From NCBI GenBank assembly GCA_963706595.1, contig OY970166.1, forward strand, positions 3,904,001 to 3,968,000: DNA of 64,000 nt, read 5' to 3'. The notes under the pieces were generated by a model that worked only from the letters and a program-made list of their open reading frames with translations, was not told the origin of the DNA and did no database searches. Each line of letters begins with the position of its first letter. Within the stretch, counting starts at the first letter, position 1. Origin of the DNA: an uncultured cyanobacterium. GTDB lineage: Bacteria; Cyanobacteriota; Cyanobacteriia; Cyanobacteriales; Nostocaceae. Positions 40,225 through 52,855 of this stretch are shown piece after piece. A program made the position numbers and the translations under genes.

Positions 40225-41553
40225 ATGACCAAGAAATCTGATGCTGACGGGAAGTCAGTTGATTCTCAGCAATTTACCGAGCCGACTGATGGCACACCTA
40301 AGTCGGGAGATAGCGCTTGGTCAAACCGTATTACTAATATCTGGAATAAAACTAGAAACCGCTTGGGGAATCTCGTACCTGTAGAGCAAGTAACACAGAC
40401 TATAGTTCAATGGTTTAGCGTGAGTGAAACTGAGGTAGCAGAGATTTTGGCGACAGTTCGAGCCGAACTCCCAACCACAGAGGCTTTGCTGATTGGTAAA
40501 CCCCAAGCTGGCAAAAGTTCCATTGTCCGGGGCTTAACAGGAGTATCTGCGGAAATTGTGGGTCAGGGATTTCGCCCCCACACTCAACATACCCAGCGTT
40601 ACGCCTATCCATCTCATGAATTACCGTTGCTGATTTTCACAGATACGGTGGGACTAGGAGACGTGAATCAGGAGACTCAAGCGGTAATTCAGGATTTGGT
40701 TAATGATTTACAAGAATCCACCCGTCGGGCTAGAGTCCTGATTTTGACAGTCAAAATCAATGATTTCGCCACCGAGACACTGCGACAAATTGCGGAAAAA
40801 CTCCGTCAGCAGTACCCAGAGATTCCCTGTCTATTGGCTGTTACCTGTTTACATGAAGTTTATCCCCCCAGTACAGCTGACCATCCTGATTATCCACCAG
40901 ACTATGAGGAAGTCAACCGCGCCTTTACAGCCATTGAGGAAGCTTTTACAGGATTATACGATCGCTCTGTCCTGATTGACTTCACTTTAGAAGAAGATGA
41001 GTATAATCCTGTGTTTTATGGATTAGAAGTATTACGGGATTCCTTAGCGGAAATACTTCCAGAAGCAGAAGCCCGTGCAATTTATCAGTTATTAGACGAT
41101 GCAGCTGGTAAGCAACTGGGCGATATTTACCGAGATGCTGGTCGGCGTTACATTTTACCATTTTCGATTATGGCAGCGGCTTTGGCGGCTGTGCCATTAC
41201 CATTCGCTACTATGCCAGTTTTAACTTCTTTACAAGTCTCAATGGTGGGTCTGCTAGGTAAATTATATGGGCAAACGGTAACACCATCACAGGCAGGAGG
41301 TGTTGTCAGTGCGATCGCAGGCGGTTTTTTAGCCCAAGCTGTTGCACGAGAGTTAATCAAATTTGTGCCTGGTTTCGGTAGCGTCATCGCTGCTTCTTGG
41401 GCTGCTGCTTACACTTGGGCGCTGGGAGAAGGTGCTTGTGTTTATTTTGGTGACTTAATGGGTGGTAAAAAACCCGATCCTCAAAAAATCCAGGCGGTGA
41501 TGAAAGAAGCTTTTCAGAAAGCACAGGAAATGTTTAAAGGTATCAAAACTTGA
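40225..41553 (+). CDS. GTPase with C-terminal DUF697/YcjF-like domain
   Basis: GKPQAGKSS, DTVG; AAVPLPFA, LIKFVPGFGS. Confidence 0.8.
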   Translation: MTKKSDADGKSVDSQQFTEPTDGTPKSGDSAWSNRITNIWNKTRNRLGNLVPVEQVTQTIVQWFSVSETEVAEILATVRAELPTTEALLIGKPQAGKSSIVRGLTGVSAEIVGQGFRPHTQHTQRYAYPSHELPLLIFTDTVGLGDVNQETQAVIQDLVNDLQESTRRARVLILTVKINDFATETLRQIAEKLRQQYPEIPCLLAVTCLHEVYPPSTADHPDYPPDYEEVNRAFTAIEEAFTGLYDRSVLIDFTLEEDEYNPVFYGLEVLRDSLAEILPEAEARAIYQLLDDAAGKQLGDIYRDAGRRYILPFSIMAAALAAVPLPFATMPVLTSLQVSMVGLLGKLYGQTVTPSQAGGVVSAIAGGFLAQAVARELIKFVPGFGSVIAASWAAAYTWALGEGACVYFGDLMGGKKPDPQKIQAVMKEAFQKAQEMFKGIKT

Positions 41554-44107: not shown

Positions 44108-44177
44108 TACTATTTATACTTATTAAGTAAATATAATTTACAATTTATTTAAAAATACCTGGGGAAGCAATAAAAGC

Positions 44178-44268
44178 AGGATTTACGCAAAAACTCTCTC
44201 AAACCCTTATTCCTCTGTGTTCTCTGCGTCTCTGTGGTTCGTTATTCCGTAATTTGTGCGTAAGTCCT
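44178..44268. mobile_element. MITE-like element
   Basis: TIRs AGGATTTACGCA / TGCGTAAGTCCT with internal CTCTG(T/C)G repeats. Confidence 0.65.
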
Positions 44269-44347
44269 AAAAAGAAAGCCTTATGCTTTTTGCTGCTGTA
44301 TATAGTAATTCGTTTTGATTTCGTGAATATCGGAAATCGGTTATCTG

Positions 44348-44505
44348 ACATCTTGTACTAGCCGATTAGAAGATTGGGCTACACAAACAAAACTCTCCTA
44401 TGCGGGTTTGAGACCTTTGAGACTCTTGATTTTTCATTAGTCCGCGAAGGCGGACTTTGTTTGTATAGCCGCGATTTCTAATCGCCAGGACTAGGTACAA
44501 GATGT
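44348..44505. mobile_element. Nested foldback MITE-like element
   Basis: ACATCTTGTAC/GTACAAGATGT; CGATTAGAA/TTCTAATCG; GGCTACACAAACAAA/TTTGTTTGTATAGCC. Confidence 0.7.
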
Positions 44506-44523: not shown

Positions 44524-45576
44524 TTACTTAAACAACGAAAGTATTACCCATAGAGCATAAAAGGCAATTGGAATCCAAAGCACCCAATTAGATCGATAAT
44601 TAGCTTTAATGGCGGAATTTGAAATAAAGTGTGGATTTTTTGGCTCTAAAACCAATTGTGGTAAAGGTTGTATGGTATCTGGCTGTATAACTGGATGCAT
44701 AATTGGTTGTAAATCTTTGAGTGGAAAACCCAACTTTTCCCGTTGCTCAACATATAGATGAGCCACCTTCCGAGCCAAATGACGAATCCTGCCAATGTAA
44801 CGAGTTCTCTCCGTCACCGAAATCACACCTCTAGCATCCAGCAGATTAAACGTGTGCGAACACTTCATCACATAATCCAGACTCGGTACAACCAACCCAC
44901 GCTCAGTCAATTGACCAGCTTCCTGCTCATATAAATTAAACAGTGTCAGCAGCAACTCAGGATTCGACCCCTCAAAATTGTAAGTACACTGCTCAATCTC
45001 ACTTTGCAGAAAAACATCACCATAAGTAATAGTGTCCGTCCAATCAATCTTAGTAATAGCTTCCACCTGCTGGAGATACATCACCAGACGCTCCAACCCG
45101 TAAGTAATTTCAATAGATACAGGACGACAATCAATTCCCCCACACTGTTGGAAATAGGTAAATTGAGTAATTTCCATCCCATCTAACCAGACTTCCCAAC
45201 CAGTACCCCAAGCGCCCACCGTCGCATCTTCCCAGTTATCCTCCACAAATCGAACATCATGATCTTCTGGACGAATCCCCAAAACCCTTAAAGAATCCAG
45301 ATAAATATCTTGAATATTATCCGGTGAAGGCTTAATCAAAACTTGGTACTGATAATAATGTTGAAAACGATTCGGATTTTCGCCGTAACGGCCATCAGTA
45401 GGACGACGACATGGTTCAACATAAGCAACAGACCAAGGTTCCGGACCCAACGCCCTTAAAAATGTATGAGGGTTTTTAGTACCCGCCCCCTTCTCAATAT
45501 CGTAAGGCTGGGCAATTAAGCAACCACGTTCACCCCAAAACTGGTGCAATAAACTAATGACAGACTGAAAATTCAC
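44524..45576 (-). CDS. glyQ: Glycine--tRNA ligase alpha subunit with 64-aa C-terminal extension
   Basis: [44 protein letters not shown]; extension after LGFPL. Confidence 0.96.
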
Positions 45577-51372: not shown

Positions 51373-52323
51373 ATTTAGCTTGTTAGTGCGTATGTCACAA
51401 ATTTTAGGTCTATTGAGGATAGTAATAAATTTGAAATTGGGGATCTGACTTGCCTAGTTGGGAAGAACGAAGCAGGTAAAACTGCTATCCTTCAGGCCTT
51501 TTACGGCATTAATCCGTTTGCATCTTTTATTTACGATAGAACTCGTGACTATCCCCGTCGTCACTTTAGTCGTTTTGATGATCGACATACAGATGGTTAC
51601 TCGAAAGTCATCGAAACACATTGGATTCTATCGTCTGCCGATATAAAACTCGTAAGTGACATTTATAGGACAGACGGGCTGAAGGTGGTAATTGATATAG
51701 CTGAAGGCAAAGCTGGAGACAAGCCCCCATTCAACTCTGGAACTATTGTCAACATTCGTATTGAAAACAGCAATCATCGAGTAACTGTCCCACTTTCCGA
51801 ACGAAGTGCTGGCTTTGTATGGTTCTTTTCTTTCTTATCCCAGTTCAAACAACTTAAGAAGACTACGGGTAATGCCATCATACTACTGGATGAGCCAGGA
51901 TTAACTCTACACGGAAAAGCTCAATCTGATTTGCTACGTTACATTGAGGAGAGGCTTCTTCCTGAGCATCAGGTCATTTTCACAACACACTCTCCATTTA
52001 TGGTACCTGCGGAGCGCATGGCAGATGTTCGGATTGTTGAAGATGTAATCAAGTATTAAGGCAGAAAGCCGACCGTACTAGGTACCAAAGTTTCTTCCGA
52101 CGCATTACTTGTTGATAAAGATACGCTATTCCCGCTACAGGCTGCACTTGGATACGAAATCACCCAGTCACTTTTTATCGGTAAAGATACGCTGCTTGTA
52201 GAAGGACCATCAGACATTCTTTATCTTCAAGCATTCTCTACAGCTTTAAAGAATCGCAAACGTGAAGGCTTAGATTCGCGCTGGACGATATGCCCTTCTG
52301 GTGGGATAGATAAAATATCCTGA
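51373..52323 (+). pseudogene. Decayed OLD-family ATPase/TOPRIM gene
   Basis: One frame: ATT TAG CTT in place of a start, NFRSIEDS, LVGKNEAGKT, LLDEPGLTLH, TTHSPFM, TAA at 52057, then LLVEGPSD; cut by IS at 52320. Confidence 0.85.
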
Positions 52324-52708
52324 CGGGGCGACAAACAAGGCTGAAAACAAGACAGTATAAACAATGTAACGATTTATGGTAAAAAAAGATAGGTCAGGGA
52401 TTGTCAATAAGACCTATCTAATGAAAATAATACCTTTATTCTATCAAAAGCACTTAAAAAGTCAATTGAGTCTAGCAGAATACCTGTTTCTCCAAATTTT
52501 GGTGAACATCTTACAGTCAATTAAAAACGTGAATTTAGAAAGGTTAGCGACTGGGATACCTTTGCCAATTAAATTTGAGAGTAGAAGGAGAAGAATACAA
52601 AGATTTCTCTCATTACCAAATCTCACAATTGAAAAAATTTGGTTTCCTATCATTACGGAATGGCTATCAATATACTTCACTAACGAAAAAATAATTTATG
52701 TAGCAATA
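52320..52708 (+). mobile_element. Truncated IS4-family element (left end + transposase N-terminus)
   Basis: End CTGACGGGGCGACAA; ORF with PIKFESRRRRIQRFL..IWFP..YVAI, breaking off at the expected first DDE Asp. Confidence 0.75.
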
Positions 52709-52768
52709 TTTGGCAGTTCTAAAAATGGATCGGCTAGCACAAAGATAAATAATTGTGAAGCGAACAGT

Positions 52769-52855
52769 ATATAACAACCGTATTGGAGCGGACTAGCTAA
52801 AAATTATAATATGGTTTTCAAAGTTGCTATTAGCCGCTCAATACAACCGTTAGCC
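52769..52855 (+). other. Integron attC-like recombination site
   Basis: R'' ATATAAC, L'' GTATTG(G)AGCGG(A)CTA, L' TAGCCGCTCAATAC, R' GTTAGCC; upstream ORF stop TAA inside R''. Confidence 0.7.

What the first reader, a model, noticed from the sequence alone, without database searches (positions are those of the whole stretch)
44524..44718. GlyQ with a Pro/Gln-rich linker and C-terminal transmembrane anchor
Seen: after the usual end (REKLGFPL) the frame continues 64 aa: a QP-rich linker, then [20 protein letters not shown], a tail-anchor-like helix. Known: some cyanobacterial aaRSs are thylakoid-anchored via CAAD, but this tail does not look like CAAD and I do not know of an anchored GlyRS alpha. 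Inference: an independent route to membrane-localised aminoacylation, or a recent fusion with a foreign gene's 3' end.
Basis: partly seen in the sequence, partly recalled or inferred. Interest (0 to 1): 0.7.

Follow-up and report, generated by a model that had tools for sequence, protein, structure and literature searches.

The report
Second membrane anchor on tRNA synthetases
Some filamentous cyanobacteria carry a short, apparently undescribed membrane-anchor-like tail on their only glycine tRNA synthetase, and the same tail has been copied onto the serine enzyme in other strains, although these multi-subunit enzymes were thought to be soluble.

Summary
The tail is real: glyQ (window 44524-45576, minus strand) runs 64 codons past the usual end, as a Pro/Gln-rich linker and one hydrophobic helix at the C-terminus. 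It is neither strain-unique nor recent. A profile found it at 44 synthetase loci in 43 of 389 genomes of this family: on GlyQ (17 intact, 10 broken) and on SerRS (11 intact, 6 broken), and on no other protein. Nostoc SerRS copies begin with the last ~11 codons of glyQ, so the tail moved from glyQ to serS. The anchor is under purifying selection (omega 0.40, p=1e-4); the linker is not by the same test (0.91). It is not CAAD, and all 27 carriers tested keep a ~1000-aa CAAD protein, taken as ValRS. The 2016 survey found CAAD only on monomeric class I enzymes and GlyRS/SerRS soluble in Anabaena. Best reading: a second, CAAD-independent, optional tail anchor on oligomeric class II synthetases. Membrane location and expression are untested, it is often lost, and its origin is unknown. 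No earlier finding of this scan describes it.

The parts
44719..45576 (-). glyQ body: glycyl-tRNA synthetase alpha subunit, residues 1-286; the only glyQ found in this genome
   Evidence: Pfam PF02091 E 9e-145; TIGR00388 over cut-off; 1 match in G000; one glyS elsewhere, C1:1986013-1987677
44719..44754 (-). Last 12 codons of the glyQ body, from the Tyr codon through LGFPL. The first 11 were carried along when the tail was copied onto serS in relatives.
   Evidence: In 8 of 8 intact Nostoc SerRS tails the first 33 nt match a glyQ 3' end at 27-29 positions and a native serS end at 14-17; 22-23 versus 15-18 in the 3 more diverged copies (each is a best-of-many match)
44599..44718 (-). Pro/Gln/Val-rich flexible linker, 40 aa (residues 287-326), variable in length among relatives
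   Evidence: Translation; pLDDT under 50 over 282-328; omega 0.91, not different from 1; in-frame length variants
44524..44598 (-). Anchor: short Tyr/Arg-containing flank, 19-residue hydrophobic helix (331-349), one Lys, stop. Pro, Tyr, Trp and Ser are invariant and fall on one helix face.
   Evidence: KD 19-mer 1.85-2.42 in 28 of 28 intact copies; P, I, Y, W, S invariant in 28 of 28, with P, Y, W, S at 0, 40, 340 and 20 degrees; omega 0.40, p=1e-4
44348..44505 (.). Dispersed inverted-repeat element just downstream of the stop; not part of the module
   Evidence: 43-nt arms 44363-44405 and 44442-44484; up to 83 overlapping blastn hits in this genome
41661..44018 (-). Downstream comEC-family gene; context, and a possible right-hand homology arm for exchange of the glyQ 3' allele
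   Evidence: Pfam Competence + DUF4131; comEC follows glyQ within 700 nt in 10 of 11 genomes of the genus

Best explanation
The 64-aa tail is a portable tail-anchor module. A flexible ~40-aa linker and one C-terminal transmembrane helix tether the cell's only GlyRS alpha subunit, and so the alpha2beta2 enzyme, to the cytoplasmic face of a membrane, most likely the thylakoid. Gly-tRNA would then be made next to membrane-bound ribosomes, as CAAD does for ValRS. It arose on glyQ in an ancestor of part of this family, was copied once onto serS by recombination at a shared Tyr codon, and is kept as an optional allele that is exchanged between strains and repeatedly lost. SHOWN: frame, hydrophobic terminal helix, two host enzymes only, selection on the anchor, glyQ-derived junction on serS, scattered presence, many broken copies. 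INFERRED: expression as one polypeptide, membrane insertion and N-in topology, the oligomeric state of these enzymes (textbook for class II GlyRS and SerRS). INFERRED BY ANALOGY ONLY: thylakoid as the target and local tRNA supply as the benefit.
For: All 44 real loci lie at the 3' end of glyQ (27) or serS (17), in 43 of 389 family genomes. A scan of 1.84 billion representatives gave 3 hits, all GlyQ or SerRS fragments; a search of longer proteins gave 3, all SerRS. Landing twice on a tRNA synthetase and nowhere else repeats the host pattern of CAAD. Anchor omega 0.40 (2dL 15.0, p=1e-4), hydrophobic core alone 0.50 (p=0.014), linker 0.91 (p=0.59); pairwise counts agree, 0.35-0.48, p about 0.002. 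No charged residue lies inside the 19-residue core in 28 intact copies, and the invariant residues share one face. In 11 tailed Nostoc glyQ, divergence is 0.03-0.10 across the tail and 0.19-0.25 in the 30-nt windows just past the stop. Broken copies show 72 amino-acid-changing to 24 silent codon differences from their nearest intact copy, against 37 to 26 for intact copies. No untailed paralogue was found in 4 of 5 GlyQ carriers and 5 of 5 SerRS carriers tested; the fifth's second copy is cut off in a jumbled contig.
Against: No localisation, proteomic or RNA evidence; the laid runs hold only tail-less relatives. Only 28 of 389 genomes have an intact copy, 16 of 44 loci are broken, and 9 of 11 genomes of this genus lack it, so it is dispensable. 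Selection on the anchor is weak next to the enzyme body (about 0.05). The broken-versus-intact contrast is marginal (Fisher p=0.037; 0.11 without one copy with an insertion; rows not independent). Silent sites in the tail are unusually conserved (4-fold sites 6.2% versus 22.7% in the enzyme body of the same 13 pairs), which a protein-only function does not explain and which distorts omega. No dedicated transmembrane predictor was available.
Confidence: 0.62

Rival explanations
1. A tolerated relic. An old accidental fusion of a membrane gene's 3' end (possibly the last helix of TspO) to glyQ gives a tail that may insert in membranes but brings no benefit and is being lost lineage by lineage.
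For: 16 of 44 loci carry stops or frameshifts. Nine more Nostoc glyQ alleles among 133 examined keep only the first 26-28 nt of the tail. The TspO C-terminal helix is the top non-self hit of the anchor profile among 7282 ORFs of this genome (E=0.22) and shares W-x-P-I-x-x-Y-x-x-W (hhalign 18%).
Against: Omega 0.40 in the anchor against 0.91 in the adjacent linker; invariant residues on one face; conservation drops just past the stop; a second, lasting fusion to another synthetase in three genera. The TspO match is not significant; DNA identity is only 36-50%.
Confidence: 0.2
2. The tail is a regulatory handle rather than a tether for local charging: a hydrophobic C-terminal degron, or a helix that binds a specific membrane partner and so lowers or sequesters synthetase activity.
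For: Invariant Pro/Tyr/Trp/Ser stripe on one face suggests a specific contact. At most one residue follows the core. CAAD itself is reported to bind ATP synthase (PMC4893482, passages). Hydrophobic C-terminal degrons are recalled knowledge, not tested.
Against: A full 19-residue helix behind a 40-residue spacer is more than a degron needs (inference). No partner gene co-occurs in the neighbourhoods seen. Partly compatible with the best explanation.
Confidence: 0.12
3. The selected unit is the DNA or mRNA (a localisation signal, pause sequence or cis element); the peptide is secondary.
For: 4-fold sites in the tail diverge 3-4 times less than in the host gene, also when only A/T sites are counted (0.027 versus 0.25 in Nostoc glyQ). 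Strong codon bias, CCA in 139 of 179 Pro codons.
Against: No conserved RNA structure (consensus -1.0 kcal/mol over 12 sequences). No other frame is open in all copies. Amino-acid changes are depleted in the anchor specifically. Recent exchange of the allele between strains also lowers silent divergence.
Confidence: 0.06

Closest known systems
CAAD-containing aaRSs of cyanobacteria (ValRS, IleRS, LeuRS, GluRS, ArgRS, MetRS, CysRS; Pfam PF14159; CurT/CURT1 family). Source: PMC4893482, passages and section 17; Olmedo-Verd et al. 2011 was not held.
   Same: A hydrophobic module appended to a housekeeping synthetase with no paralogue; patchy in cyanobacteria; found on more than one synthetase. That paper suggests transfer from one aaRS to another; here the junction shows it.
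   Different: No detectable homology to CAAD. One terminal helix instead of two helices plus a coiled coil. No stand-alone parent found. Hosts are class II oligomers, which the paper says lack CAAD, suggesting oligomerisation hinders anchoring. It coexists with a CAAD protein of ValRS size in 27 of 27 carriers tested.
MprF-LysRS fusions (mentioned in PMC5388404, one passage; the name LysX and its role in lipid lysylation are recalled) and fungal ErdS (search-listing abstract only)
   Same: A class II synthetase domain held at a membrane.
   Different: Those are dedicated fusions with a lipid aminoacyl-transferase. Here the sole housekeeping enzyme carries a bare anchor. PF09924 was not found in this genome or in 4 of 4 other non-Nostoc GlyQ carriers; FemAB in 0 of 5 carriers.
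Tail-anchored membrane proteins (single C-terminal helix; definition seen in the search-listing abstract of PMC10248533)
   Same: Single hydrophobic helix at the extreme C-terminus, large N-terminal soluble domain, 0-1 residues after the core.
   Different: Not reported for a bacterial housekeeping tRNA synthetase in the searches made; targeting route here untested.
Fused (alpha-beta)2 GlyRS of Chlamydia and chloroplasts (PMC8464048, passages; PDB 7LU4, 7XJY listed)
   Same: Shows that the alpha C-terminus tolerates a Pro-rich flexible extension.
   Different: There the linker leads to the beta subunit; here to a hydrophobic helix, with glyS separate.

Membership tests
GlyRS alpha subunit (glyQ) | Full PF02091 / TIGR00388 domain | tested here: met
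GlyRS alpha subunit (glyQ) | Partner beta subunit gene present | tested here: met
   PF02092 1-535 of 536, no stops
CAAD-containing aaRS | Sequence match to CAAD (PF14159) / CurT | tested here: not met
   0 Pfam hits for 12 tails at E<=10; hhalign 0.9% and 1.4%, 7 columns; CurT proteins rank 592 and 1232 of 1831 domain hits of the anchor profile in this genome
CAAD-containing aaRS | Two transmembrane helices and a C-terminal coiled coil | tested here: not met
   One hydrophobic 19-mer, then 0-1 residues, in 28 of 28; one helix in the model
CAAD-containing aaRS | Host is a monomeric class I synthetase | tested here: not met
   Hosts are GlyQ and SerRS; class and oligomeric state from established knowledge and PMC8464048
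CAAD-containing aaRS | Thylakoid localisation of the active enzyme | not testable with these tools
   Needs fractionation or imaging
Tail-anchored membrane protein | Single hydrophobic helix at the extreme C-terminus and none elsewhere | tested here: met
   Last-window KD 2.1, best elsewhere 0.83; helix 329-348. Hydropathy only, no TM predictor.
Tail-anchored membrane protein | Membrane insertion with N-terminus in the cytoplasm | not testable with these tools
   1-3 Lys/Arg in the 12 residues before the core in 28 of 28, but acids are as frequent in many; weak support only
TspO/MBR-derived fragment | Significant homology to the last TspO helix | tested here: inconclusive
   Top non-self hit, E=0.22; hhalign 18% over 18 columns; DNA identity 36-50%
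Supplier of a membrane aa-tRNA transferase (MprF/Fem type) | Co-occurring MprF-type or FemAB transferase | tested here: not met
   PF09924 absent from G000, G005, G132, G163, G117; in Nostoc present in 17 of 19 carriers and 10 of 14 non-carriers; FemAB 0 of 5

The most novel reading that the evidence does not exclude
Heterocyst-forming cyanobacteria have evolved a second, CAAD-independent membrane anchor specific to oligomeric class II tRNA synthetases. It moves from one synthetase gene to another by recombination, segregates as an on/off allele across species and genera, and docks through a conserved helix face on a specific thylakoid partner. Natural tailed and tail-less alleles in close relatives would make it directly testable why cyanobacteria tether synthetases to membranes.
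Probability: 0.4. Interest if true: 0.85.

Novelty: new variant of a known kind. Interest (0 to 1): 0.72.

Why it matters
Why some cyanobacteria fix tRNA synthetases to thylakoids is an open question, known so far from one domain, CAAD. The 2016 survey found CAAD only on monomeric class I enzymes, proposed that oligomers resist anchoring, and saw GlyRS and SerRS soluble in Anabaena (PMC4893482). A different anchor on two oligomeric class II enzymes would break that pattern and show convergence on the same end by another module. The glyQ codons left at the serS junction are direct sequence evidence of transfer between synthetase genes, which that paper could only suggest. Close relatives differ in having or lacking the tail while the enzyme is 97-99% identical, which gives ready natural comparisons. 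The 64-aa tail may also serve as a minimal membrane-targeting tag.

Tried and rejected
Assembly or frameshift artefact: rejected, same in-frame tail in G005 and 15 more GlyQ. CAAD fragment: rejected. Replacement for ValRS-CAAD: rejected, 30 of 30 genomes tested (27 carriers, 3 non-carriers) have a ~1000-aa CAAD ORF; ValRS identity seen by sequence in G000 and 6 of 9 fetched others, by length in the rest. Stand-alone or mobile donor: none found in this genome, viral contigs, plasmids, phages, PHROGs (105, one family at E 0.16), PDB (106, one hit at E 0.46) or the ESM Atlas (29, 88, nothing at 0.9). Occurrence outside the family: 3 weak hits among 401 phylum genomes; two lie opposite longer unrelated ORFs and the third in a short frame beside one, and I dropped them. 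One family hit (G230) had no synthetase upstream and was dropped. The pattern scan of 185,579 genomes gave 27 loci; 26 are titled Nostoc, Trichormus or Nostocales, one only Cyanobacteriota. Programmed read-through or frameshifting in broken copies: unlikely, breaks differ in place and kind and some copies hold several stops. Conserved RNA structure or overlapping ORF: none. Supply to MprF or Fem transferases: not supported. Tailed/untailed paralogue pair in G132: the second copy ends at the junction inside a contig with scrambled rRNA pieces, read as an assembly artefact. Reads and RNA: the four runs laid gave no cover over 44560-44671 and the long pieces of X1, X3 and X5 start at 44723, the junction; they are tail-less relatives and say nothing on expression. 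A region search with this genome's own tail found nothing.

Full report
OBSERVATION. The reverse strand holds one ORF, 44524-45576, of 350 aa. Residues 1-287 are a normal GlyRS alpha subunit. After LGFPL come a 40-aa Pro/Gln/Val-rich linker (44718-44599), a short polar flank, a 19-residue hydrophobic stretch (44586-44530), one Lys and the stop. The stretch has a Kyte-Doolittle mean of 2.1, against 0.83 for the best window elsewhere in the protein; only 2 of 3174 ORFs of 200 aa or more in this genome have that pattern. A single-sequence AlphaFold2 model, poor overall, predicts helix 329-348 with block pLDDT 77-88 and no structure in the linker. This is the only glyQ found in the genome, and glyS is intact elsewhere. 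The gene lies between a divergent rRNA operon (16S from 45892) and a comEC-family gene.

NOT AN ARTEFACT, BUT PATCHY. Of 11 genomes of the genus, two (G000, G005) have the tail; nine end seven residues after FP. The two tails are 94.8% identical in DNA, with 7 amino-acid changes in the linker and none in the anchor. The four public runs laid on the region hold only tail-less relatives, so expression is untested.

THE SAME TAIL ON TWO SYNTHETASES. A search of 201 family genomes with the tail alone gave hits at the ends of GlyQ and of SerRS. A profile of 12 tails then matched 44 of 389 family genomes; one hit had no synthetase upstream and was dropped. The other 43 genomes hold 44 loci: GlyQ 17 intact and 10 broken, SerRS 11 intact and 6 broken; G315 has an intact GlyQ copy and a broken SerRS copy. 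They fall in 9 of 68 genera, intact ones in 7. That search scores only 16 candidates per genome, so these are lower bounds. No convincing copy was found outside the family among 401 phylum genomes. The pattern scan of 185,579 genomes gave 27 loci, titled Nostoc, Trichormus, Nostocales or Cyanobacteriota; metagenome contigs gave two more GlyQ copies, one intact, one with a stop. Searches of 1.84 billion representatives and of longer proteins returned only GlyQ and SerRS. Viral contigs, phages and plasmids gave nothing. Databases name tailed proteins simply as GlyRS alpha.

DIRECTION OF TRANSFER. Untailed SerRS ends in Y/F-L/F-G-R-E/D-V/I-L-stop in 28 of 30 genomes examined; one was cut by a contig end and one (G123) has a longer end like the broken copies. 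In tailed Nostoc SerRS that end is replaced, from the Tyr codon on, by sequence matching the last 11 codons of glyQ at 27-29 of 33 nt, against 14-17 for a native serS end; the 33 nt upstream match glyQ at only 13-14. Three diverged copies in two other genera keep the glyQ spacing and match at 22-23 of 33. All 11 intact SerRS tails form one group on the tail tree (96%). So the module started on glyQ and was most simply copied to serS once.

HISTORY. Tailed alleles do not form one clade on the tree of the enzyme bodies: p-AU 1.4e-5 for 16 glyQ among 56 of my 133 rows and 2e-7 for 11 serS among 40 rows. Tailed and untailed alleles interleave within genera. Tail types mostly follow the deeper clades, which points to an old origin. 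Loss is visible: nine Nostoc alleles among 133 glyQ ends keep only the first 26-28 nt, and others share the DNA that follows the tail but lack the tail. Exchange between strains is also likely: one Nostoc copy (G354) looks by eye like the type of another genus, and silent divergence dips at the tail (0.04, against 0.17-0.40 in glyQ and 0.15 in the start of comEC). I cannot apportion loss and gain without a species tree.

SELECTION. With a codon model on 28 intact tails, omega is 0.40 for the 26-codon anchor (p=1e-4 against 1), 0.50 for the 19-codon core (p=0.014) and 0.91 for the linker (p=0.59). Counts on 13 disjoint pairs give 0.35 or 0.48 depending on how pairs are chosen, p about 0.002, against about 0.05 for the enzyme body. 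Pro, Ile, Tyr, Trp and Ser are invariant in 28 of 28, and Pro, Tyr, Trp, Ser lie within 60 degrees of one helix face. Broken copies lean more to amino-acid changes (72:24 against 37:26), a marginal contrast (p=0.037, or 0.11 without one outlier). In tailed Nostoc glyQ, divergence rises from 0.03-0.10 in the tail to 0.19-0.25 just past the stop. One result stays unexplained: 4-fold sites in the tail diverge at 6.2% against 22.7% in the body of the same pairs. No RNA structure or second frame accounts for it; recent allele exchange or codon-level constraint might.

WHAT IT IS NOT. It is not CAAD: no Pfam match, hhalign 0.9-1.4% resting on a Y-x-x-W motif. It does not replace ValRS-CAAD, which this genome has, as do, by ORF length, 27 of 27 carriers tested. 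It does not track MprF-type or Fem transferases. Its origin is unknown; the one lead is the last helix of cyanobacterial TspO, the top non-self hit in this genome but at E=0.22, hhalign 18%.

MECHANISM. Most likely (0.62) the helix inserts in a membrane and the linker lets the enzyme work in the cytoplasm nearby. The alpha C-terminus tolerates a flexible Pro-rich extension in natural alpha-beta fusions (PMC8464048, passages), and a 40-residue spacer would relieve the geometric constraint proposed to keep oligomeric synthetases off membranes (inference). The thylakoid and local supply of charged tRNA are assumed by analogy with CAAD. Rivals: a tolerated relic (0.2), a degron or partner-binding regulatory handle (0.12), a DNA/RNA-level element (0.06).

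KNOWN AND NEW. PMC4893482 (passages and section 17 read; supplements not read) lists CAAD on seven class I enzymes, states that all are monomeric, and finds GFP fusions of all other Anabaena synthetases, GlyRS alpha included, soluble. Seven full-text searches listed no paper on a hydrophobic tail on cyanobacterial GlyRS or SerRS; term look-ups in two general aaRS papers found nothing on cyanobacteria. The library lacks most subscription papers, including the 2011 CAAD paper, so an earlier mention cannot be excluded. Membrane-held class II synthetase domains exist as MprF-LysRS fusions, but those are specialised. No earlier finding of this scan covers the tail.

VERDICT. Observation confirmed; interpretation partly supported and extended. 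A new variant of a known kind: membrane anchoring of cyanobacterial synthetases, by a different module, on a class of enzyme thought excluded, with a recorded jump between genes. Interest 0.72, held down by the lack of localisation or expression data and by frequent loss.

Noticed in passing
L128:324-2295 (G269), L129:245-2510 (G195); partial in L131-L134 (positions on the strand read): CAAD domain at the C-terminus of a nitrogenase alpha-like (VnfD-type) protein after a repetitive linker in several Nostoc-type genomes. Already described in PMC5987646 (passage read).
   Followed up: yes
L130 (G361:C120:4000-8000, minus strand): ArgRS-like protein of 684 aa with an internal CAAD, in a genome that also has a ValRS-size CAAD protein and an intact GlyQ tail: three putatively anchored synthetases in one cell. 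ArgRS-CAAD as a type is known.
   Followed up: partly
window 44348-44505 and 44175-44270: Two different dispersed repeat elements between glyQ and comEC, each with about 50-80 overlapping blastn hits in the genome; the second is missing from G005.
   Followed up: partly
glyQ 3' ends, L175-L254: Tail-less Nostoc glyQ alleles end in a few alternative short peptides, each shared by strains scattered over the tree, so this 3' end behaves like an exchangeable cassette.
   Followed up: partly
tail DNA in L033, L049-L067 and others: Silent sites in the tail are 3-4 times more conserved than in the host gene, with strong codon bias; unexplained.
   Followed up: partly
L320 (G132:C23:1-8000): Second glyQ copy, 99.9% identical but cut at the junction, inside a stretch of scrambled rRNA and other fragments; probably mis-assembly.
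   Followed up: yes
window 51685-52774: After the rRNA operon: a fragment of an ATPase gene (weak hits to retron effector ATPases) and a truncated IS4-family transposase.
   Followed up: no
window 40225-41553 (+): 442-aa GTPase-like protein (weak Era/Der hits) with a hydrophobic C-terminal half, convergent with comEC.
   Followed up: no
L045 (G149:C126): 777-aa ORF that looks by eye like a prokaryotic Argonaute (PIWI-like C-terminus); a chance hit of the tail search, label recalled and not tested.
   Followed up: no
G000:C1 minus strand, ORF starting near 4158760 (251 aa): The only other ORF of 200 aa or more in this genome with a tail-anchor-like hydropathy pattern.
   Followed up: no
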